From an uncultured Elioraea sp. (GTDB lineage Bacteria > Pseudomonadota > Alphaproteobacteria > Acetobacterales > Acetobacteraceae), in NCBI GenBank assembly GCA_964533585.1, contig CAZHMM010000001.1, positions 12,940 through 76,939 on the forward strand: a DNA stretch of 64,000 bases, in the 5' to 3' direction. Below are positions 6,931-62,425 of the stretch, piece by piece. Every line of letters begins with the position of its first letter. Position 1 is the first letter of the stretch. A program made the translations under genes and the position numbers. The notes beneath the pieces are model-generated. The model did not search any database. It had not been told where the DNA came from and worked only from the letters and a program-made list of their open reading frames with translations.

Positions 6931-7034
6931 GGACTGGACTCTCCGGGCCGTGACTGCCGGCACGTTCCGGCGAGGAGGCAGTCTAGGGCAGTTCGCCAGC
7001 CCCGGCACTGTCGCGTTCGCTTGAATGGGCCGGA

Positions 7035-7430
7035 TCACCTGCGGCAGGCGAAGAAGGTGCGCGGCCGCGAGATGTCGATCGTTGTGTCGTTGCGCATGAT
7101 CGAGATCGGCCGCAGCCCGCCGGCAACGCGCTGATAGGTCACGATGTCGCCCGGGCGGAGCGGGGCATCGCCATTCTGCACCTGCCGCACGAGCGCTGCG
7201 ATCTCATTGCCGCGAATGCGGTAATGGACCTGAGCCGCGGCGACACGCTCGCCCCCCTCGTGCCATTCCAGCGTCGTCCGGCCGACGACATGGCGCGGCG
7301 CGGTCGCGCCGCAGGAGAGATCGGGCGACCATGCGCCCTGCAGGCTCGACGGCGCCTCCACGGCGGTGGCCGGCGGCGCGAGCGCGACGACGAACAAGGC
7401 GGCCACGGCGGCGCGTTGCATCAGGTCCAT
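7035..7430 (-). CDS. Secreted hypothetical protein, paralog B
   Basis: GGAGG SD at 7436-7440; signal peptide ending ATA; LQGAWSPDLSC...FACRR. Confidence 0.8.
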   Translation of the reverse strand: MDLMQRAAVAALFVVALAPPATAVEAPSSLQGAWSPDLSCGATAPRHVVGRTTLEWHEGGERVAAAQVHYRIRGNEIAALVRQVQNGDAPLRPGDIVTYQRVAGGLRPISIMRNDTTIDISRPRTFFACRR

Positions 7431-54912: not shown

Positions 54913-55413
54913 TCAGCCGCGCGGGGTCGCGTCCGTCTCGTCGAGGCGCTTGCGGCTGCCGACCCAGTGCGTCAGTTCGTCCGCCACCAGGCGCTCGATG
55001 GTGTCGGCCAGCGATGCATGGCGGTCTGGGCCGTCATACGGAGCGAGGCGGGCGAGGTAGCGCACGCGTTCACGCTTCAGCGCCTCGGCGGTCGCCCGGT
55101 GCATCAACCAGGTCTGGTGATGCCGCCCGACCTGAAGCAGCCCTTCCAGCAGCACCGCCAGCGCGCCGGCGGTTGCCGCGACCCATGGGCTGCCGACCAG
55201 CGCGAACACCGGCACGAAGGCCGTGAGCGCGATCTGCGCGCCCTTGAGCAGCCGATAGAGAAGCTGGTTGGCGACCGCGCTCTCCTCGTACCACGCGCGC
55301 AGGTAGTCGAGCCGCGCCTGCACGATGGCCGCCGCGTCCAGCCCCGCGTAGTCCGGCTCGGCGATGCGGCCGCCCGGCCGGATCCGATCGAACAGGCGCC
55401 TCAGTGCCGTCAC
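54913..55413 (-). CDS. DUF4231/SLATT-like two-TM protein
   Basis: RLDYLRAWY, two hydrophobic helices, W...R.TAEALKRE..RY. GTGA overlap with the upstream M20 gene. Confidence 0.8.
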   Translation of the reverse strand: MTALRRLFDRIRPGGRIAEPDYAGLDAAAIVQARLDYLRAWYEESAVANQLLYRLLKGAQIALTAFVPVFALVGSPWVAATAGALAVLLEGLLQVGRHHQTWLMHRATAEALKRERVRYLARLAPYDGPDRHASLADTIERLVADELTHWVGSRKRLDETDATPRG

Positions 55414-56528
55414 GGCAGCGCGGCGATCCGCGCGGCGAGGCGGAGCAGCACGGGTGGAGCCGCGGTGAGGTCAGCCACCGCGACGCGCTCGTGCGGCGTG
55501 TGCGCGGTGTCCACCCCGCCCGGTCCGAGCACGATGCAGGGCGCGACCGCCTGCAACTCCGAGGCATCGGTGCCATAGGGCGCGGTCTTGGCGGCCTTGC
55601 CGGTCTCGGCCACCGCGGCGGCGACCAGCGGATGGTCCTCGGGCAGTTGCGGCGGCGCGCCCTCGTGCCGCTCCTCGAGCGTGATTCCGTGGCGCTCCGC
55701 CGCCTCGCGCACCGCGGCGATCACCGGAGCGGGATCGACGTTGCGGCTGTAGCGGAACTTGATGTGCGCGGTCGCGCGCGCGACCGTCACGTTCGCCGCG
55801 GTGCCGTGGTTGTCGATGACGATGTTGAAGTCGCTGAACGGCGGGTCATAGGCCGGGTCCTGCCAGGCCGGATCCTCGCGCAGGCGCTTGTGGATCGGCA
55901 GCAGCGCATTGAGGAACGGGATCAGGTCGAGATTGGCGTTCTTGCCCTTGCCGGTCGAGGAATGCGCCTGCACCCCCGTCGCCGTCGCGGTGAACTGGAC
56001 GTGCACGCGATGGCCGCGCACGCACTGCATGGCCGAGGGCTCGACCACCACGATCCCCTTGGGGGTGAACTGCCGCATCAACGCGCTCTTCGCGGCGATC
56101 AGCCGTGCGCCGGCCTTCGTCGTCTCCTCGTCGAAGGTGTAGAGCAGGCTGAGCGGCAGGTCGGCCGGGGCAGCCTGGGCGGCGACCAGGCTCGCTGCCA
56201 GCGGACCCTTCATGTCACAGGCGCCGAGCCCATGCAGCATTCCGTCGGCGACCAGCGGCGTCCAGGGATCCGTGGTCCAGCCGGTGTCCGGTACGGTGTC
56301 CATATGCGCGCTGAAGGCGGCCCCACCGCGCGCGGGGCCACGATGCGCGACCAGCGCGCGCTTCGGCACGCCGTTCGGGTCGGTCCAGTCGAGCCGCTCG
56401 ACCTCGAAGCCCGCGAGTTCGGCCTCGATCCGTTCGGCGACCGCGATGTTGCTCACCGAGCTCCGGCTGTCGATCGCGACCAGGTCGCGGGCTAGGCGGA
56501 GCGTGCGTTCGCCGTGGTCGTCAGTCAT
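55410..56528 (-). CDS. M20 metallo-amidohydrolase (ArgE/DapE-like deacylase)
   Basis: FSAHMDTVP, GLGACDMKG, TFDEET, VVVEP, HSS.G.G.NA, YGTDA, GPG..DTAHTPHE. Confidence 0.9.
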   Translation of the reverse strand: MTDDHGERTLRLARDLVAIDSRSSVSNIAVAERIEAELAGFEVERLDWTDPNGVPKRALVAHRGPARGGAAFSAHMDTVPDTGWTTDPWTPLVADGMLHGLGACDMKGPLAASLVAAQAAPADLPLSLLYTFDEETTKAGARLIAAKSALMRQFTPKGIVVVEPSAMQCVRGHRVHVQFTATATGVQAHSSTGKGKNANLDLIPFLNALLPIHKRLREDPAWQDPAYDPPFSDFNIVIDNHGTAANVTVARATAHIKFRYSRNVDPAPVIAAVREAAERHGITLEERHEGAPPQLPEDHPLVAAAVAETGKAAKTAPYGTDASELQAVAPCIVLGPGGVDTAHTPHERVAVADLTAAPPVLLRLAARIAALP

Positions 56529-56556
56529 CGGCCGGGGTGTCCTTTGCGACTCCAGG

Positions 56557-56936
56557 TCACGCCGCGCGTTCATAGACCAAGTGCAGGGCGCCGCGCGGCC
56601 TTGCCTCCCACCTTGCCAAACGCAGCTTGGTCTCGGGCGTGCCGGCGGGGAAGAGGGGAATGCCCTCGCCGAGCACGACCGGAATCAGCGCCATCTCCAG
56701 CACGTCGAGCCGGCCGATCGCGCGCATGCCCCGCAGCAGCTGCCCTTCGCCCTCGATCCAGACGCGTCCAAAGCCCGCGTCGCTCCAGCTCGGCGACAAA
56801 GGTGCCGAGGTCGCCACTGCGCGTCTCCACCTCGTCCGGCGGATCGTCCAGGGCGCGCGAGGCGACGACCACGGTCGGCTTGCCTGGAGCGGCCATCCAG
56901 CGAAACGGCAACATGGCAATGCCAGATCGTCGGCAC
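56557..56936 (-). pseudogene. Degraded DHFR/RibD-C-family gene
   Basis: Three reading frames hold consecutive parts: HVAVSLDGR, then PGKPTVVVASR...ELERRG, then FGRVWIEG.GQL...LIPVVLGEGIPLFP. The central MGR.TYE region is missing. Confidence 0.8.
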
Positions 56937-57010
56937 GACACCGTCCTGACCCGGAGCGGAAACGCGCCCAGCCTTGCAGCCGGCCCGCGCTTCGGCAACC
57001 CTCCGCGCGC

Positions 57011-58147
57011 ATGACGCCCGCCTATCTCGACCCTCGGACCGGACGAACCTTTCCGCTCGCCACCCCGCGCTGGCGTTCGGATGACGGCAATCCGCTGTTG
57101 CTCACACCGCTGCCAGGCATCGCCCGCAGCGACATTGATTCCGACACGCGGAGCCTCTGGCGCTACCGCCGCGCCTTTCCGTTCGGCCCCGAGGTGGCGC
57201 CGATCACCATGGGCGAGGGCTGCACGCCGCTGATCGAGCGCAGGCTCGATGGCGCGCGCGCCCTGCTCAAGCTCGAGTGGTTCGCGCCCACCGGCAGCTT
57301 CAAGGACCGCGGCGCCTCGGTGATGCTGTCGGGGCTGCGCGCACAGGGTGTCGCCGCCGTGCTGGAGGATTCCTCCGGCAATGGCGGTGCCGCGATCGCG
57401 GCCTATGCCGCGGCCGGCGGCATGCGCGCCAAGATCCTCGTGCCGGCCTCCACGTCACCGGCCAAGACGGTGCAGATGAAGGCGCATGGCGCGGAGATCG
57501 AGCTCGTGCCGGGATCTCGACAGGACTGCGCGGACGCGGCCCTGCGCCAGGCCGAGCGCATCTTCTACGCCTCGCACAACTGGCATCCGTTCTTCCTGCA
57601 CGGCACCAAGACGCTCGCCTTCGAGCTGTGGGAGGACCTCGGGTTCCAGGTACCCGACAACATCATCATCCCCTGCGGCGCGGGCTCGAATGTGCTCGGC
57701 TGCGAGATCGGCTTCGCCGAACTGCTGCGTGCCGGCGCGATCGATCGGATACCGCGTCTGTTCGCGGTGCAGCCCGCCAATGTCGCGCCGATCGCGGCGG
57801 CGTTCCTCGCCGGCGTCGACGCGCCGGTCGCGTGCGAGATCAGGCCGACCATCGCCGAGGGCACGGCGATCGCCAAGCCGATCCGCCTGCGTGAGGTGCT
57901 CGGCGCACTCCGCGAGTCCGAGGGGGGGGCGGTGACGGTCACCGAGGCCGAGATCGAGGCGGCGCTGTTCTCGCTCGCGCGCATCGGCATCTATGTCGAG
58001 CCGACCTGCGCCTCGGCCGCCGCGGCGCTGGCCAAGCTGCGCGCGTCCGGCACGATCGGTGCCGAGCAGACCACCGTGCTGGTGCTGACCGGCACCGGCC
58101 TGAAAGCCACGCCGCGCATCGCCGAGCTGATGGGAATGACGCTCTGA
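57011..58147 (+). CDS. Threonine synthase-like fold-type II PLP enzyme
   Basis: MGEGCTPL, KLEWFAPTGSFKDRG, DSSGNGG, GTKTLAFE, EPT.A, LTGTGLK. Confidence 0.88.
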   Translation: MTPAYLDPRTGRTFPLATPRWRSDDGNPLLLTPLPGIARSDIDSDTRSLWRYRRAFPFGPEVAPITMGEGCTPLIERRLDGARALLKLEWFAPTGSFKDRGASVMLSGLRAQGVAAVLEDSSGNGGAAIAAYAAAGGMRAKILVPASTSPAKTVQMKAHGAEIELVPGSRQDCADAALRQAERIFYASHNWHPFFLHGTKTLAFELWEDLGFQVPDNIIIPCGAGSNVLGCEIGFAELLRAGAIDRIPRLFAVQPANVAPIAAAFLAGVDAPVACEIRPTIAEGTAIAKPIRLREVLGALRESEGGAVTVTEAEIEAALFSLARIGIYVEPTCASAAAALAKLRASGTIGAEQTTVLVLTGTGLKATPRIAELMGMTL

Positions 58148-59715
58148 TGGCCCAGAAACCGCCGCCGCGCATTGCCATCCTCGGCTTCTCGATCGAGTGC
58201 AATGCCTTCGCCCCGCCGGCGACGCGCGCCGACTTCGAGTCCTGCGTCTGGCTCGAACGTGATGCGATCATCGCCGACGCGCGCTGCGCCACGCCGATCG
58301 CGCTCGGCGAGGTGCCTGGCTTCGTCGCCGCGATGGACGCCACGGGACCGTGGCAGCCGATGCCGATTCTGCTGGCCATGGCCGAGCCGAACGGGCCGGT
58401 GGAGGAGCAGACCTTCGCCGAGATGATGCGCATCTGGCGCAAGGGCCTGGAGCGCGCCGCCCCGCTCGACGCCGTCTATGCCTGTATGCACGGTGCGGGG
58501 CTCTCGACCGAGCGGACCGATCCCGACGGCGACATGCTGGCGATGGTGCGCGAGGTGGTCGGCCCGGACGTGCCGGTGGTCGCGACCTTCGACCTGCACG
58601 CCAACATCTCCGAGGCAATGGTGCGGAGCGTCGATGTGTTTGTCGGCTACCGCACCAACCCGCATCTCGACATGTGGCAGCGCGGCGAGGAGGCGGCAGG
58701 CCATGTGCGCGCGCTGCTGCGCGGGGCGAAGACCTCGCGCACCTTCATCCGTCTGCCGATCATTCCGCCGACGGTGACGATGCTGACGGGCAGGGACGCG
58801 TCCGATCGCCCGTATGGCGAGATGATCGATCTCGGTCAGCGCCGCATCGCGGATCAGGACTGCGTCGGCCGGATCCTCAATGTTTCCGTGATGGGCGGCT
58901 TCGCCTACAGCGATACGCCGAAGAACGGGCTCGCCGTGGTGGTGACCGCGCGACGGGGTGACGAGGCCGTGGCCGAGGCACTCGCCGAGGAGATCGCCAC
59001 GCTCGGCTGGTCCAACCGCAAGCGATTCAATGCCAGGCTGACACCGCTCGACCAGGCGACCGCCAAGGCCAAGGCCGCCGGGGAGGACCCGTCGACGCCC
59101 GCGCTCTGCTTTCCCGACGTCGCCGACAATCCCGGCGGCGGCGGCCGCGGCAACACGATGTGGATTCTCGAGGCGTTCCACCAGGCCGGCGTGCAGCGCT
59201 GTCTCGTCGGCATCGTCTTCGACCCGCCGCTGGCCGCGGCGGCACATGAAGCGGGCGTGGGGGCCGCCTTCGAGGCCCGCTTCAACACCGCCGAGACGAA
59301 TGCTTTCTCCAGGCCCTTCTCGGCACCTGCCACCGTGCGCGCGCTCTCGGACGGGCGCGTCACTGGGCGACGCGGCATCTTCGCCGCGCGCGACATGCGG
59401 CTCGGACCTTCCGCCGCGCTCGATCTCGGCGGCATCACCGTGGTCGTGGTGTCCTACCGCACGCAATGCGCCGACCCCGCGTTCTTCGAGATGTTCGGGC
59501 TCGACATCGCCGCCGCGCGCTCTGTGGTCGTGAAGTCGCGTGGGCATTTCCGCGGCGGCTTCGACGAGTTCTTCACCAACGACCGCATCGTCGAGGTCGA
59601 TGCGCCGGGTCTCACCAGTCCGATCCTCAGCCGGTTCGAGTGGAAGCGCCTGCCCCGGCCGGTGATCCCGCTGGACGAGGGGGTGAAGTGGTCGCCGAGG
59701 CAGTTGCGACGCTGA
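58147..59715 (+). CDS. M81-family (MlrC-like) metallopeptidase
   Basis: IECNAF, MHGA, TFDLHAN, YRTNPHLD, DVADNPGGG, KSRGHFRGGF. TGATG overlap with the upstream gene. Confidence 0.92.
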   Translation: MAQKPPPRIAILGFSIECNAFAPPATRADFESCVWLERDAIIADARCATPIALGEVPGFVAAMDATGPWQPMPILLAMAEPNGPVEEQTFAEMMRIWRKGLERAAPLDAVYACMHGAGLSTERTDPDGDMLAMVREVVGPDVPVVATFDLHANISEAMVRSVDVFVGYRTNPHLDMWQRGEEAAGHVRALLRGAKTSRTFIRLPIIPPTVTMLTGRDASDRPYGEMIDLGQRRIADQDCVGRILNVSVMGGFAYSDTPKNGLAVVVTARRGDEAVAEALAEEIATLGWSNRKRFNARLTPLDQATAKAKAAGEDPSTPALCFPDVADNPGGGGRGNTMWILEAFHQAGVQRCLVGIVFDPPLAAAAHEAGVGAAFEARFNTAETNAFSRPFSAPATVRALSDGRVTGRRGIFAARDMRLGPSAALDLGGITVVVVSYRTQCADPAFFEMFGLDIAAARSVVVKSRGHFRGGFDEFFTNDRIVEVDAPGLTSPILSRFEWKRLPRPVIPLDEGVKWSPRQLRR

Positions 59716-59756
59716 TCGCTTCGGCGGACACTCGGGCGCGGCGAGGGAGGACGAGG

Positions 59757-61319
59757 ATGAGAATGAGAAGAACACTGCTGGGCGCTGCCGCCGCCGTAAC
59801 GCTCACGTGGGGTGCCGCGGCCGAGACGCTGACGATGGGCATCAAGCTCGGCCCCTCGTCGCTCGACCCGCATTTCCGCTTCGCCGGCGAGACCGACAAC
59901 ACGCTCGAGCACCTCTATTGGCGGCTGATCCGCGAGGGACCCAACAAGGAGATGACCCCTGGTCTCGCGCAATCCTGGCGAGCGATCGACGACCGCACCT
60001 GGGAGTTCTCGCTGCGGCCGGAGGCGACATTCTCCGACGGCAGCCCGGTCACCGCCGAGGATGTCGCCTACAGCCTCTGGCGCGTGCCGCGGATCGAGGG
60101 CAGCCCCGGCAGCTACGTCATCTTCACCCGCGCGATCGAGGCGGTGGAGGTGGTCGATCCGCGCACCGTGCGGATCCGCACCCGCACGCCCTATCCATTC
60201 GTGCCGGTGGACATGGCGCGTATCTTCATCGCGCCGAGATCGCTCGGCGAGACCGTGCGGACCGACGATTTCAACGCCGGCCGTGCGGCCGTGTTCTCCG
60301 GTCCCTGGGTGCTTGAGACCTGGCGTCCGGGCGAGGTGCTGGAGCTTCGTGCCAACCCGCATTGGTGGGGCCAGAAGAGCCCGTGGACGCGCGTCTCGAT
60401 CCGCACCGTGTCGAACGACGCCGCGCGCACGGCGGCGCTGCTGTCCGGCGCGGTGCAGGCGATCGACGAGGTCTCGCTCGCCGACCTGCCGCGGATGCGG
60501 ACCGACAGCCGCGTCGCCGTGACACAGATCGCCGGCAGCCGCGTGATGTATGTCGGCCTGGACATGGACCGCGACGCCTCGCCATTCGTGCGCGACCGCG
60601 CGGGCAACCCGCTCACGCCGAACCCGCTGAAGGATGTGCGCGTGCGCCAGGCACTCAGTCACGCGATCGACCGCACGGCGATGGTCGAGCGGGTGCTGGA
60701 GGGCGCGGCGACGCCGGCGGCGAATCTGCTGCCGGAGGGAACCCCCGGCACCAACCCGAACCTCAAGCCGACCCCCTACGACCCCGATCGGGCGCGCGCG
60801 CTGCTGGCTGAAGCCGGGCTCGCGGGCGGGTTCCGCGTCACCCTGCACGCGACCAACGACCGCTACCCGAACGACGACAAGGTGGCGCAGGCGATCGCGC
60901 AGTTCTGGACCCGGATCGGTGTGCAGACCGAGGTCGCGCTGCAGCCCAACGCGACCTTCTTCGCGCAGGCGAGCCGCCAGACCTTCAGCATCATGGCCGC
61001 GCAGTACGGTGCGGCGGACGTCTCGACGATGTACCGCGCGCTGGTGCACTCCTTCGACCGCGCCGGCGGGCTCGGCAGCGCCAATCGCACCCGCCACTCC
61101 TCGCCGCGCGCGGATGCGCTGGTGCGCGATGCGCTCACGACGATGGATGACGCGAAGCGCAACGCCCTGTTCGCCGAGGCTGCGCGCATCGCGCTCGACG
61201 AGGAGACGATCATCATCTTCGTCTACTACCCCTCATACGTGTACGCCGCCCGTCAGGGCATGACGGTCGCGCCGTACAACGACGGTCGGTTCCTCGCCCA
61301 CGAGATCAGGAAGCAATGA
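59757..61319 (+). CDS. ABC transporter substrate-binding protein, family 5 (peptide/Dpp-like)
   Basis: SLDPH, PGLAQSW, WEFSLRP..TFSDGSPVTAEDV..S, DVRVRQALS.AIDR, YPND. Confidence 0.92.
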   Translation: MRMRRTLLGAAAAVTLTWGAAAETLTMGIKLGPSSLDPHFRFAGETDNTLEHLYWRLIREGPNKEMTPGLAQSWRAIDDRTWEFSLRPEATFSDGSPVTAEDVAYSLWRVPRIEGSPGSYVIFTRAIEAVEVVDPRTVRIRTRTPYPFVPVDMARIFIAPRSLGETVRTDDFNAGRAAVFSGPWVLETWRPGEVLELRANPHWWGQKSPWTRVSIRTVSNDAARTAALLSGAVQAIDEVSLADLPRMRTDSRVAVTQIAGSRVMYVGLDMDRDASPFVRDRAGNPLTPNPLKDVRVRQALSHAIDRTAMVERVLEGAATPAANLLPEGTPGTNPNLKPTPYDPDRARALLAEAGLAGGFRVTLHATNDRYPNDDKVAQAIAQFWTRIGVQTEVALQPNATFFAQASRQTFSIMAAQYGAADVSTMYRALVHSFDRAGGLGSANRTRHSSPRADALVRDALTTMDDAKRNALFAEAARIALDEETIIIFVYYPSYVYAARQGMTVAPYNDGRFLAHEIRKQ

Positions 61320-62425
61320 TGCGCCTCGCCGATCTGCCGACACCCGCGTTGGTGCTCGACCGTGCCGCGCTGATGCGCAACCTGCGCATGATGGCCGAAG
61401 CCGTCGCGCGTCACGGCGTCACACTCCGCCCGCATCTCAAGACGGCGAAGAGCATCGACGTGGCGATGGCGGCGGCGCCTGGCTTCGGGCCGATCACCGT
61501 CAGCACACTGGCCGAGGCGCAGCTCTTCGCCGAAGCCGGGTTCCGCGACCAGATTTACGCGGTCGGCATCGTGCCCGCCAAGCTCGACGCGGTCGCGGCG
61601 ATGAACGCCAAGGGTGCGGACGTGAAGGTCATCACCGACGACCTCGACGCCGCGCGCGCCATCGCTGCCCACCCGGGACGCATTCGCGCGCTGGTCGAGG
61701 TCGATGTCGGCGAGAGCCGCGGCGGCGTCACACCCGACGACGATGCGCTGCCGGCGATTGCCGCGGCGCTCGGGCCGAGACTCGCCGGGGTCATGACGCA
61801 TGCCGGCCACTCCTATGCCGGGCATGACGTCGCGGAGATCCGCGCGGTCGCCGAGACCGAGCGTGCCGGCATCGTGCGTGCGGCGGAGCGGCTGCGCGCT
61901 ACAGGGCACGAGATCGCCATCGTCTCGATGGGCTCCTCGCCCACCGCCCTGCATGCCGCCTCGCTCGCGGGCGTGACCGAGGTGCGTGCGGGCGTCTACA
62001 TGTTCGGCGACCTGATGCAGGTCGAACTGCACACCCAGCCGATGGAGGACGTCGCGGTCTCGGTGCTGGCGAGCGTGATCGGCCGGAAGCCCGCGCAGAA
62101 CCGCATCCTGATCGACGCCGGCGCGCTCGCGCTCTCGAAGGACCGCGGCACGCAGACCATGGCGAAGGATTACGGCTTCGGCCTGGTGGTCGATCTCGCC
62201 GGGCGGGCCGTGTTCGGCGATGCGATCGTCACACGCGCCTACCAGGAGCATGGCGTGGTCGAGTGCGACCGGCCGCTGCCGTTCGACGCGCTGCCGGTCG
62301 GGGCACGCGTGCGCGTGCTGCCGAACCACTCGTGCCTGACGGCGGCGGCCTATGAGCGCTACCACGTGGTCGATGGCCGCTCGGACGAGGTGGTCGCGGT
62401 CTGGCCGCGGGTGAACCACTGGTAG
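61316..62425 (+). CDS. DSD1-family PLP enzyme (D-threonine aldolase/D-serine dehydratase-like)
   Basis: TPALVLD, LRPHLKTAKS, HAGHSY, GSSPT, RAGVYMFGD, IDAGALALSKD, QEHG, PNHSCLT. ATGA overlap. Confidence 0.9.
   Translation: MMRLADLPTPALVLDRAALMRNLRMMAEAVARHGVTLRPHLKTAKSIDVAMAAAPGFGPITVSTLAEAQLFAEAGFRDQIYAVGIVPAKLDAVAAMNAKGADVKVITDDLDAARAIAAHPGRIRALVEVDVGESRGGVTPDDDALPAIAAALGPRLAGVMTHAGHSYAGHDVAEIRAVAETERAGIVRAAERLRATGHEIAIVSMGSSPTALHAASLAGVTEVRAGVYMFGDLMQVELHTQPMEDVAVSVLASVIGRKPAQNRILIDAGALALSKDRGTQTMAKDYGFGLVVDLAGRAVFGDAIVTRAYQEHGVVECDRPLPFDALPVGARVRVLPNHSCLTAAAYERYHVVDGRSDEVVAVWPRVNHW

What the first reader, a model, noticed from the sequence alone, without database searches (positions are those of the whole stretch)
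55410..62425. thrC-like / MlrC / SBP5 / DSD1 operon with a divergent M20 deacylase: candidate catabolism of D- or hydroxy-amino-acid peptides
Seen: TGATG and ATGA overlaps tie four genes together, there is no ABC permease or ATPase, and an M20 hydrolase lies on the opposite strand. Established: MlrC (M81) cleaves microcystin fragments; DSD1-family enzymes act on D-Ser, D-Thr and beta-hydroxy-D-amino acids; fold-II enzymes perform beta/gamma eliminations; M20 enzymes remove N-acyl groups. Inference: an uptake-hydrolysis-elimination pathway for a non-ribosomal-peptide-like or N-acyl-D-amino-acid substrate, rather than threonine biosynthesis.
Basis: partly seen in the sequence, partly recalled or inferred. 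Interest (0 to 1): 0.55.

Follow-up and report, generated by a model that had tools for sequence, protein, structure and literature searches.

The report
Conserved hydroxy-amino-acid breakdown gene cluster
An Elioraea-like bacterium carries a conserved but uncharacterised gene cluster that most likely frees an unusual (probably beta-hydroxy, aspartate-like) amino acid from peptides or N-acyl conjugates and breaks it down; its "threonine synthase" is a spare, altered copy that probably does not make threonine.

Summary
Four + strand genes run from 57011 to 62425: a ThrC-like PLP enzyme, an M81/MlrC-like peptidase, an SBP5 binding protein and a DSD1-like enzyme. An ArgE-like M20 gene lies on the opposite strand. 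No ABC permease is found on the whole contig.

A canonical thrC lies elsewhere in the genome, and the cluster is conserved.

Across 80 species with the ThrC-like gene:
- 49 have the DSD1-like gene beside it.
- 41 have the M20 gene beside it.
- 38 have the M81 gene beside it.
- Only Elioraea has the SBP5 gene, and it is internally deleted in a 93%-identical relative.

New points:
- The DSD1-like protein is closest to Delftia D-threo-3-hydroxyaspartate dehydratase (271 bits) and keeps the dehydratase-type His-x-Cys metal site.
- The M81 protein keeps all five MlrC zinc-site residues.
- The ThrC-like protein falls below every thrC cut-off and lacks the residues that I recall as the phosphate site of solved threonine synthases. 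So do all 127 nearest representative proteins.
- In other lineages its orthologues sit beside DctA, RraA-like, RidA, asparaginase and BhcD-like genes.

Best reading: a catabolic module for a beta-hydroxy, aspartate-like amino acid released from amide conjugates. No function was tested. The scan noted the same three-gene group (ThrC-like, M81, DSD1-like) on another genome (e1-3011012). Interest is moderate.

The parts
57011..58147 (+). ThrC-like fold-type II PLP enzyme (378 aa). It is the anchor gene of the module and probably a lyase or deaminase rather than a threonine synthase.
   Evidence: PALP domain 3e-68. Best NCBIfam matches are thrC models, all below their cut-offs (131 bits against 167.1). 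Closest solved structures are short ThrCs at 31-35% identity, TM about 0.8. The PLP lysine motif SFKDRG is kept. At the positions T88, N154, S155, R160 and N188 of Thermus ThrC it has G, H, N, F and A. Homologues are 74-94% identical across Acetobacteraceae.
58147..59715 (+). M81 (MlrC-like) metallopeptidase, cytoplasmic, translationally coupled to the ThrC-like gene.
   Evidence: DUF1485 and MlrC_C domains. Solved relatives are 3IUU (144 bits) and microcystinase C 7YLQ (126 bits). Window E17, H115, D149, H151 and H173 align with the MlrC zinc-site residues E56, H150, D184, H186 and H208. The NCBIfam MlrC model scores 133.7 against a cut-off of 999.
59757..61319 (+). Family-5 periplasmic solute-binding protein, an orphan with no permease or ATPase nearby. 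It is a lineage-specific addition.
   Evidence: SBP_bac_5 6e-82. NikA, DppA and Opp models all score far below their cut-offs. An RBS and a signal-peptide-like N-terminus are present. It lies in the operon only in the window, G004 and E. rosea. It is reduced to two fragments in G008. There is no BPD_transp_1 match on contig C1.
61316..62425 (+). DSD1-family (fold-type III) PLP and metal-dependent dehydratase, closest to D-threo-3-hydroxyaspartate dehydratase.
   Evidence: Ala_racemase_N and D-ser_dehydrat domains. 3WQC scores 271 bits, E 1e-79, full length, about 46% identity by my count. 3LLX scores 249 bits, chicken D-serine dehydratase 158, BhcC 87 and D-threonine aldolase 82. PHLKTAK (PLP lysine) and LPNHSCLT (His-x-Cys) are conserved.
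55410..56528 (-). ArgE/DapE-like M20 deacylase (372 aa from the probable start; the ORF extends to 56573). It is the conserved divergent partner of the ThrC-like gene.
   Evidence: Peptidase_M20 and M20_dimer domains. The ArgE model TIGR01892 scores 206.6 against a cut-off of 297.7, while another gene on C60 scores 366.6 and ArgJ is present. It lies beside the ThrC-like gene in 41 of 80 loci.
56557..57012 (-). Decayed RibD_C (dihydrofolate-reductase-like) gene between the M20 and ThrC-like genes. Probably a pseudogene and not part of the pathway.
   Evidence: Two reading frames each carry part of the protein. Only a weak RibD_C match remains. Intact 174-176-aa genes are present in G004 and G008. 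The alignment shows an extra base and a lost 5' half.
54913..55413 (-). DUF4231/SLATT-like small membrane protein, overlapping the M20 stop by 4 nt. A lineage-specific passenger.
   Evidence: DUF4231 3e-20, with weak SLATT_1 and SLATT_3 matches. A terminator-like hairpin follows at 54858-54836. It forms a singleton cluster among all loci, and there is no room for it in G004. No PADLOC hit.

Best explanation
This is a conserved catabolic module, not threonine or arginine biosynthesis.

Proposed working (all steps inferred, none assayed):
1. A peptide-like or N-acylated precursor enters the cell. In Elioraea the orphan SBP5 protein would hand it to a permease encoded elsewhere. In other genera a DctA or MFS carrier encoded in or beside the operon would do this.
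2. In the cytoplasm the M81 metallopeptidase and the divergently transcribed ArgE-like M20 deacylase cut amide bonds and release a non-standard amino acid.
3. The DSD1-like PLP and metal-dependent enzyme dehydrates and deaminates beta-hydroxy amino acids of the D-threo or L-erythro type. The most likely substrate is 3-hydroxyaspartate, with D-serine a further candidate. The product would be oxaloacetate or pyruvate plus ammonia.
4. The ThrC-like enzyme has the threonine-synthase fold but not its phosphate pocket. It would act as a lyase or deaminase on the isomer or related amino acid that the first enzyme cannot take. This is the weakest step.

My odds:
- About 0.5 that the module is a catabolic route for a beta-hydroxy or D-type amino acid released from amide conjugates.
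- About 0.3 that the amino acid is specifically 3-hydroxyaspartate or hydroxyasparagine.
For: Shown by tools:
- Gene order, the two overlaps and the shared strand.
- Canonical thrC, ArgJ and a better ArgE match lie elsewhere in the genome. thrC is present in five relatives: four same-genus genomes that also carry the ThrC-like gene, and G010, which lacks it.
- The ThrC-like protein is below every thrC cut-off.
- Its residues at the five Thermus ThrC positions T88, N154, S155, R160 and N188 differ from the three solved ThrCs shown. The same signature holds in distant orthologues and in all 127 nearest representatives.
- In 80 species the ThrC-like gene is flanked by the DSD1-like gene (49), M20 (41) and M81 (38); 60 of 80 have at least one partner.
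- In five genomes checked, orthologues of M20 and M81 were found only next to the ThrC-like gene or not at all. Both genomes lacking it also lack them.
- The DSD1-like protein matches Delftia D-threo-3-hydroxyaspartate dehydratase at 271 bits, against 87 bits for the BhcC aldolase. It has His-x-Cys, whereas D-threonine aldolase has His-x-Asp.
- That enzyme degrades D-threo- and L-erythro-3-hydroxyaspartate (PMC8071972).
- The five MlrC zinc-site residues are conserved.

Context pointing to a C4-dicarboxylic amino acid or an imine-forming lyase:
- DctA (588 bits, cut-off 513) lies downstream on the same strand in 7 loci.
- An RraA-like protein (a family that includes an aldolase/oxaloacetate decarboxylase) lies directly upstream in 4 loci.
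- RidA and asparaginase genes follow the orthologue in Streptomyces.
- Asparaginase and a BhcD-like reductase lie beside it in R. tropici.
- Another M20, an amidase and an SBP5 flank it in a Roseomonas MAG.
Against: - No enzyme activity, ligand or expression data exist.
- The roles of T88, N154, S155, R160 and N188 in phosphate binding are recalled from Omi et al. 2003 and Murakawa et al. 2011, which could not be read here.
- The ThrC-like gene also occurs alone. It sits next to atpH in small-genome congeners. It is found without a DSD1 orthologue anywhere in G018 and G020. So it need not depend on the other genes.
- Contexts of distant orthologues are heterogeneous: SufS-like, AMP-binding and LeuB genes.
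- DctA is present in only 7 loci.
- At about 46% identity the DSD1-like enzyme may prefer D-serine, D-threonine or another substrate.
- A divergent cyanobacterial ThrC lineage keeps synthase activity and also deaminates threonine (PMC12172450). Its relation to this clade was not tested.
Confidence: 0.5

Rival explanations
1. A general D-/L-serine and threonine detoxification or utilisation pair. The DSD1-like enzyme removes D-serine or D-threonine, the ThrC-like enzyme deaminates L-threonine or L-serine, and the peptidases supply them from D-amino-acid-containing peptides such as cell-wall or antibiotic fragments.
For: DSD1-family enzymes act on D-serine, D-threonine and related substrates (PMC8071972). 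The Delftia enzyme also takes D-serine (my recollection of Maeda et al. 2010, not read here). Canonical ThrCs show threonine deaminase side activity, and a divergent lineage does so physiologically (PMC12172450). RidA lies next to orthologues, as expected of a Ser/Thr-type deaminase.
Against: The carrier in the operon is DctA (588 bits), not SstT (85 bits). RraA-like, asparaginase and BhcD-like neighbours point to C4 dicarboxylates. The closest characterised relative of the DSD1-like protein is the hydroxyaspartate enzyme at 271 bits, not the D-serine dehydratase at 158 bits.
Confidence: 0.2
2. The ThrC-like gene is a second, genuine or moonlighting threonine synthase (synthase plus deaminase), and its neighbours are unrelated or only loosely related.
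For: It has the ThrC fold and the PLP lysine. PGAP and JGI name many members threonine synthase. It is the most conserved gene of the locus, with median identity 72% against 61-64% for the partners. It persists alone in reduced genomes. There is a precedent in Microcystis (PMC12172450).
Against: It is below all curated thrC cut-offs, whereas the ThrCs of all 14 control genomes, archaea included, pass. The phosphate-site residues are replaced throughout the clade. A canonical thrC is always present as well. It is tightly and repeatedly coupled to hydrolase and dehydratase genes.
Confidence: 0.1
3. An mlr-like pathway for microcystin or other cyanobacterial peptides, with the M81 protein acting as MlrC.
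For: The M81 fold and zinc site are conserved. A close relative is a MAG from an algal culture-collection sample (CCAP1437). Microcystin contains D-amino acids.
Against: The MlrC model scores 133.7 against a cut-off of 999. No mlrA, mlrB or mlrD equivalents are among the genes identified beside it. The M81 gene is missing from about half of the loci. The module is widespread in soil, lichen and freshwater Acetobacteraceae.
Confidence: 0.05
4. A variant beta-hydroxyaspartate cycle for glyoxylate assimilation, in which the DSD1-like enzyme acts as the BhcC-type aldolase and the ThrC-like enzyme as the BhcB-type dehydratase.
For: The same two enzyme folds sit side by side as BhcB and BhcC. The best NCBIfam name for the DSD1-like protein is BhcC. 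A BhcD-like gene lies near the R. tropici orthologue.
Against: BhcC scores 119 against a cut-off of 690, and BhcB 70 against 550. The solved BhcC scores only 87 bits, against 271 for the dehydratase. The His-x-Cys site is the dehydratase type. No BhcA or BhcD lies in the operon. The class-V aminotransferases seen next to distant orthologues are SufS-like.
Confidence: 0.03

Closest known systems
D-threo-3-hydroxyaspartate dehydratase of Delftia sp. HT23 (EC 4.3.1.27; PDB 3WQC)
   Same: Full-length match of the DSD1-like protein: 271 bits, about 46% identity. It shares the PLP lysine, the His-x-Cys metal ligands and the other motifs (THAG.SY, EVRAGVY, QEHG).
   Different: Activity is untested. 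Here the gene sits in an operon with a ThrC-like enzyme and peptidases. I know of no such context for the Delftia gene and found none in the searched literature.
Threonine synthase, short bacterial type (Thermus 1UIM, M. tuberculosis 2D1F, Aquifex 2ZSJ)
   Same: Same fold (TM about 0.8), PLP-lysine motif and C-terminal GxGxK motif.
   Different: Below the thrC cut-offs. STGNT becomes SSGNG, NSVNPxR becomes HNWHPFF, and GNAGN becomes GAGSN. The N-terminal zinc ribbon, if ancestral, has lost its cysteines (by eye). It is a paralogue beside a canonical thrC.
Microcystinase C (MlrC, M81; PDB 7YLQ) and the structural-genomics M81 protein 3IUU
   Same: Two-domain M81 architecture, five zinc-site residues, and no signal peptide, as in cytoplasmic MlrC.
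   Different: Only 126-144 bits, far below the MlrC model cut-off. There is no mlrA, mlrB or mlrD context. The substrate is unknown.
Beta-hydroxyaspartate cycle enzymes BhcB and BhcC (Paracoccus denitrificans)
   Same: A fold-II and a fold-III PLP enzyme are encoded side by side and both are thought to act on 3-hydroxyaspartate.
   Different: Neither protein reaches the Bhc models. The fold-III enzyme is of the dehydratase type, not the aldolase type. The fold-II enzyme is ThrC-like, not serine-racemase-like. BhcA and BhcD are absent.
Divergent 'moonlighting' ThrC lineage of cyanobacteria (mSystems 2025, PMC12172450)
   Same: A second ThrC-like gene beside a canonical one, about 35% similar to Thermus ThrC, with deaminase chemistry proposed.
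   Different: That protein still makes threonine from O-phosphohomoserine and is said to keep comparable active-site residues. Whether it belongs to the clade described here was not tested.

Membership tests
Threonine synthase (ThrC, EC 4.2.3.1) | Reaches the curated equivalog score (TIGR00260 or PRK models) | tested here: not met
   129-131 bits against 167.1. PRK06450 scores 233 against 301 and PRK08197 scores 225 against 303. All 14 control genomes pass TIGR00260.
Threonine synthase (ThrC, EC 4.2.3.1) | Fold-type II fold with the PLP-binding lysine | tested here: met
   SFKDRG aligns with K61 of Thermus ThrC. The model has pLDDT 83.7, and the top fold matches are ThrCs with TM 0.76-0.86.
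Threonine synthase (ThrC, EC 4.2.3.1) | Pocket for the phosphate of O-phosphohomoserine (Thermus T88, N154, S155, R160, N188; roles recalled from Omi 2003, not re-read) | tested here: not met
   The residues are G, H, N, F and A in the window protein, whereas the three solved ThrCs shown agree with each other. The same holds in distant orthologues. All 127 nearest representatives have His at the N154 position and no Arg at the R160 position (Phe/Tyr in 120 of 128 rows, window included).
Threonine synthase (ThrC, EC 4.2.3.1) | Is the organism's threonine-forming enzyme | tested here: not met
   A separate canonical thrC lies at G000:C4:14288-15361 with 263.5 bits. One is also present in five relatives. 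Enzyme activity itself is not testable here.
D-threo-3-hydroxyaspartate dehydratase / DSD1 dehydratase group | Full-length similarity to the characterised enzyme, stronger than to the aldolases | tested here: met
   3WQC scores 271 bits, against 87 for BhcC and 82 for D-threonine aldolase.
D-threo-3-hydroxyaspartate dehydratase / DSD1 dehydratase group | PLP lysine and His-x-Cys divalent-metal site (aldolases have His-x-Asp) | tested here: met
   PHLKTAK and LPNHSCLT align with PHVKTSK and LPNHACAT. The H351A mutant entry 4PB3 marks the His. The aldolase ligands His347 and Asp349 come from PMC4401734.
D-threo-3-hydroxyaspartate dehydratase / DSD1 dehydratase group | Dehydratase activity on D-threo- or L-erythro-3-hydroxyaspartate | not testable with these tools
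   Needs an enzyme assay. The substrate range of the Delftia enzyme is taken from PMC8071972.
Microcystinase MlrC (M81) | DUF1485 + MlrC_C architecture with the five zinc-site residues | tested here: met
   with the residue list from PMC12474180.
Microcystinase MlrC (M81) | Reaches the NCBIfam MlrC score and lies in an mlrABCD context | tested here: not met
   133.7 bits against 999. The neighbours are PLP enzymes, SBP5 and M20.
Acetylornithine deacetylase ArgE | Reaches the equivalog score and is the genome's arginine-pathway enzyme | tested here: not met
   206.6 bits against 297.7. A gene on C60 scores 366.6, and ArgJ is present at 370 bits.
Beta-hydroxyaspartate cycle (BhcABCD) | BhcB and BhcC equivalog scores, and BhcA and BhcD in the cluster | tested here: not met
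   BhcB scores 70 against 550 and BhcC 119 against 690. No aminotransferase or OCD-family gene lies in the operon.
Dpp/Opp/Nik-type ABC importer | SBP5 encoded together with permease and ATPase genes | tested here: not met
   No BPD_transp_1 match on contig C1. The SBP5 protein is below all named SBP models.

The most novel reading that the evidence does not exclude
The ThrC-like protein represents a large, mis-named clade: at least 127 clusters at 50% identity, many annotated 'threonine synthase'. The clade has swapped the phosphate pocket of threonine synthase for a His/Trp/Phe pocket and works as a lyase. In Acetobacteraceae it would pair with a D-threo-3-hydroxyaspartate-dehydratase-like enzyme so that all stereoisomers of beta-hydroxyaspartate are converted to oxaloacetate. 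The amino acid would be released by the M81 and M20 hydrolases from siderophore or lipopeptide fragments. This would be a dedicated salvage route for a hallmark non-proteinogenic residue of non-ribosomal peptides.
Probability: 0.2. Interest if true: 0.7.

Novelty: new variant of a known kind. Interest (0 to 1): 0.5.

Why it matters
If the reading is right, hundreds of genomes carry a 'threonine synthase' and an 'acetylornithine deacetylase' annotation that are wrong. A sizeable branch of the threonine-synthase fold would have a different, unassigned chemistry.

The module would also give M81 peptidases a first physiological context outside microcystin degradation. It would add a bacterial route for 3-hydroxyaspartate (or a related beta-hydroxy amino acid) distinct from the beta-hydroxyaspartate cycle.

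The enzymes could be useful for making optically pure beta-hydroxy amino acids, as the Delftia enzyme already is. If the reading is wrong, this is still a well-conserved operon of unknown function with clear, cheap tests.

Tried and rejected
Context therefore came from the genome search/get_from_genomes, the search for related loci and plasmid records.
- Fused ThrC-like + DSD1 proteins in the database (P0123-P0125) looked like Rosetta-stone evidence. P0124, the one compared, is a frameshift read-through: its ThrC-like part stops aligning at residue 271 and about 100 out-of-frame residues follow. I treat all three as such and rejected them as evidence.
- Literature searches for M81/DUF1485, ThrC-like enzymes, and hydroxyaspartate plus threonine synthase found nothing on this module.
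- The Thermus ThrC papers were not held, so the residue roles rest on memory.
- The protein atlas returned only generic 'threonine synthase' and 'PLP enzyme' names. Cluster look-up gave no organisms or useful names.
- The Iso_dh gene next to one orthologue is plain LeuB, and the class-V aminotransferases are SufS-like rather than BhcA-like. Neither is used as support.
- The promoter scan found nothing, and the terminator scan found nothing after the operon.
- PADLOC gave no hit for the SLATT-like gene.
- I did not test whether the cyanobacterial moonlighting ThrC belongs to this clade, because no sequence reference was available.

Full report
**What is there**

The window is about 70% G+C and comes from an Elioraea-like member of the Acetobacteraceae. 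The nearest relatives of its proteins are Elioraea species and MAGs.

- An M20 peptidase lies on the minus strand at 55410-56573. Its probable true start is 56528.
- A PALP-domain protein begins at 57011. The 506-aa ORF from 56627 is an over-extension: about 120 homologues are 377-380 aa long and start with the same N-terminal motif.
- An M81 peptidase (DUF1485 + MlrC_C) lies at 58147-59715.
- A family-5 solute-binding protein lies at 59757-61319.
- A DSD1-type enzyme (Ala_racemase_N + D-ser_dehydrat) lies at 61316-62425.

The junctions are TGATG (58145-58149) and ATGA (61316-61319). The middle junction is a 41-nt gap with a GGAGGA ribosome-binding site.

None of the genome's 127 BPD_transp_1 permease matches lies on the window's contig.

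Between the M20 and PALP genes lies a decayed RibD_C gene. It is intact in two congeners. Downstream of M20 a DUF4231/SLATT-like gene overlaps its stop codon and is followed by a terminator-like hairpin. Neither is conserved in other genera.

The genome has a canonical thrC on contig C4 (263.5 bits; cut-off 167.1). The window gene scores 131 bits.
- Four congeners carry both genes.
- A family member without the window-type gene has only the canonical one.

The M20 gene is likewise a paralogue. ArgJ is present (370 bits), and another M20 on contig C60 passes the ArgE model at 366.6 bits. The window gene scores 206.6 against a cut-off of 297.7. So neither 'biosynthetic-looking' gene is the housekeeping enzyme.

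**Conservation**

The ThrC-like gene was found in 19 of 24 sampled genomes of the family. It was found in only 12 of 401 genomes sampled across the class and 5 of 401 across the phylum (G000 included in both).

In 80 species fetched from the species-representative collection:
- the DSD1-like gene lies within 6 kb in 49;
- the M20 gene in 41, always on the opposite strand (directly divergent in 36 of the 41; in five, and in the window, other DNA lies between);
- the M81 gene in 38, always between the two PLP genes;
- 60 of 80 have at least one partner, and many of the remaining loci are truncated contigs.

Median identities to the window proteins are 72% for the ThrC-like protein, 64% for M20, 61% for M81 and 63% for DSD1.

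No other gene family is comparably frequent in these neighbourhoods.

The SBP5 gene lies in the operon only in the window, in G004 and in Elioraea rosea. In G008, whose ThrC-like protein is 93% identical to the window's, only residues 23-82 and 455-520 of SBP5 survive. SBP5 is therefore a recent and dispensable addition.

In five genomes examined:
- orthologues of M20 and M81 were found either beside the ThrC-like gene or nowhere;
- the two genomes without the ThrC-like gene lacked them;
- only 47-49% DSD1 paralogues occur elsewhere.

Conversely, the ThrC-like gene can stand alone. It lies next to atpH in three small-genome congeners and in other lineages. It is the anchor of the module, and the other genes are accessories.

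**The individual proteins**

*DSD1-like protein.* It aligns end to end with D-threo-3-hydroxyaspartate dehydratase of Delftia (3WQC; 271 bits, E 1e-79). I count about 46% identity. This is much better than the match to chicken D-serine dehydratase (158 bits), the BhcC aldolase (87) or D-threonine aldolases (74-82).
- It keeps the PLP lysine.
- It keeps a His-x-Cys pair where D-threonine aldolase has His-x-Asp.
- The Delftia enzyme degrades D-threo- and L-erythro-3-hydroxyaspartate. Its selectivity is set by how the beta-hydroxyl faces the metal (PMC8071972).

*M81 protein.* It has no signal peptide. It keeps all five residues placed around the zinc of MlrC: E56, H150, D184, H186 and H208 correspond to window E17, H115, D149, H151 and H173. 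It is nevertheless far from MlrC proper (133.7 bits against 999). The searched literature knows M81 only from microcystin work.

*ThrC-like protein.* It has the threonine-synthase fold. The closest solved structures are the ThrCs of M. tuberculosis, Thermus and Aquifex, at 31-35% identity and TM about 0.8. The PLP lysine is kept.
- The three solved enzymes shown share STGNT, NSVNPxR and GNAGN. The window protein has SSGNG, HNWHPFF and GAGSN.
- From memory of the Thermus structures, T88, N154, S155, R160 and N188 hold the phosphate of the substrate. The released phosphate then assists water addition. I could not re-read those papers.
- The altered signature is shared by orthologues from Streptomyces, Rhizobium tropici, large alphaproteobacterial genomes and Acidobacteriota.
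- All 127 full-length representatives closest to the window protein (at least 237 bits) have His at the N154 position. None has Arg at the R160 position, where 120 of the 128 aligned rows have Phe or Tyr.

This is a large clade that annotation pipelines often call threonine synthase.

**Contexts elsewhere**

In seven Acetobacteraceae loci a DctA C4-dicarboxylate carrier (588 bits; cut-off 513) follows the ThrC-like gene or the DSD1-like gene on the same strand. In four loci an RraA-like protein is encoded immediately upstream; its family includes an aldolase/oxaloacetate decarboxylase.

On Streptomyces plasmids a 55%-identical orthologue is followed by a YheO-type PAS regulator, RidA and an asparaginase-domain gene. 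In R. tropici it lies with the same regulator type, an asparaginase and an OCD-family protein whose best model is iminosuccinate reductase BhcD. In a Roseomonas MAG it is flanked by a different M20, an amidase with an allophanate-hydrolase C-domain, and another SBP5.

These hints converge on two points: a lyase that produces an imine or keto acid, and an aspartate-like (C4 dicarboxylic) amino acid delivered from amides. They are circumstantial. Other orthologues sit beside SufS-like, AMP-binding or LeuB genes.

**Reading**

I conclude that the locus is a catabolic module. The hydrolases (M81, M20) would free a non-standard amino acid. Two PLP enzymes of different folds would then destroy it. 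The fold-III enzyme most probably acts on 3-hydroxyaspartate-type substrates. The ThrC-like enzyme would act on what the former cannot take.

I give this about 0.5, and about 0.3 for 3-hydroxyaspartate or hydroxyasparagine specifically.

Rivals:
- a serine/threonine-centred D/L pair (0.2);
- a genuine or moonlighting second threonine synthase, as reported for a divergent cyanobacterial lineage (PMC12172450; 0.1);
- an mlr-like cyanopeptide route (0.05);
- a variant beta-hydroxyaspartate cycle (0.03).

**Novelty and limits**

Every component belongs to a known family. No paper in the searched library describes the combination or the ThrC-like clade's chemistry. The scan's first stage noted the same three-gene group (ThrC-like, M81, DSD1-like) on another genome (e1-3011012).

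All functional statements are inference from homology and context. The decisive experiments are simple enzyme assays and a thrC complementation.

Apparent ThrC-like + DSD1 fusions in the database are frameshift artefacts, as shown for the one compared.

Noticed in passing
window 54913-55413 (-): A 166-aa DUF4231/SLATT-like membrane protein gene overlaps the M20 stop by 4 nt and is followed by a hairpin plus T-run at 54858-54836. It is absent from the same position in the close relative G004 and forms a singleton among about 100 related loci. It looks like a recent insertion between the M20 gene and the ATP synthase operon. No PADLOC hit.
   Followed up: partly
window 56557-57012 (-): The RibD_C (dihydrofolate-reductase-like) gene upstream of M20 is broken here: its 5' half is lost or rearranged and there is one extra base. 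It is intact (174-176 aa) in G004 and G008. It could be a pseudogene or, less likely, an assembly error in this 401-contig draft.
   Followed up: partly
L023 (G008) 7017-7366: In a relative whose ThrC-like protein is 93% identical, the SBP5 gene is reduced to two fragments (residues 23-82 and 455-520). This is an internal deletion caught in progress.
   Followed up: yes
P0123-P0125 (database proteins of 670-744 aa): Apparent fusions of the ThrC-like and DSD1-like proteins. P0124, the only one compared, is a frameshift read-through of the two adjacent genes, not a real fusion.
   Followed up: yes
L119 (Priestia megaterium plasmid), L120 (Selenomonas plasmid): Plasmid genes annotated 'threonine synthase' lie directly behind RidA genes. 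They also lack the Arg160 equivalent of solved threonine synthases, which suggests that a wider group of mis-named ThrC-like deaminases exists.
   Followed up: partly
L007, L010, L011 (G005-G007, same genus, 2.3-2.5 Mb genomes): The ThrC-like gene is kept next to atpH while M20, M81 and DSD1 are gone. It is therefore the most persistent gene of the module and may have a role of its own.
   Followed up: partly
L104-L107 (Streptomyces, Embleya, R. tropici): A YheO-like PAS/HTH regulator gene overlaps the 3' end of the ThrC-like orthologue in Actinomycetota and Rhizobium. This is a conserved pair not seen in Acetobacteraceae.
   Followed up: no
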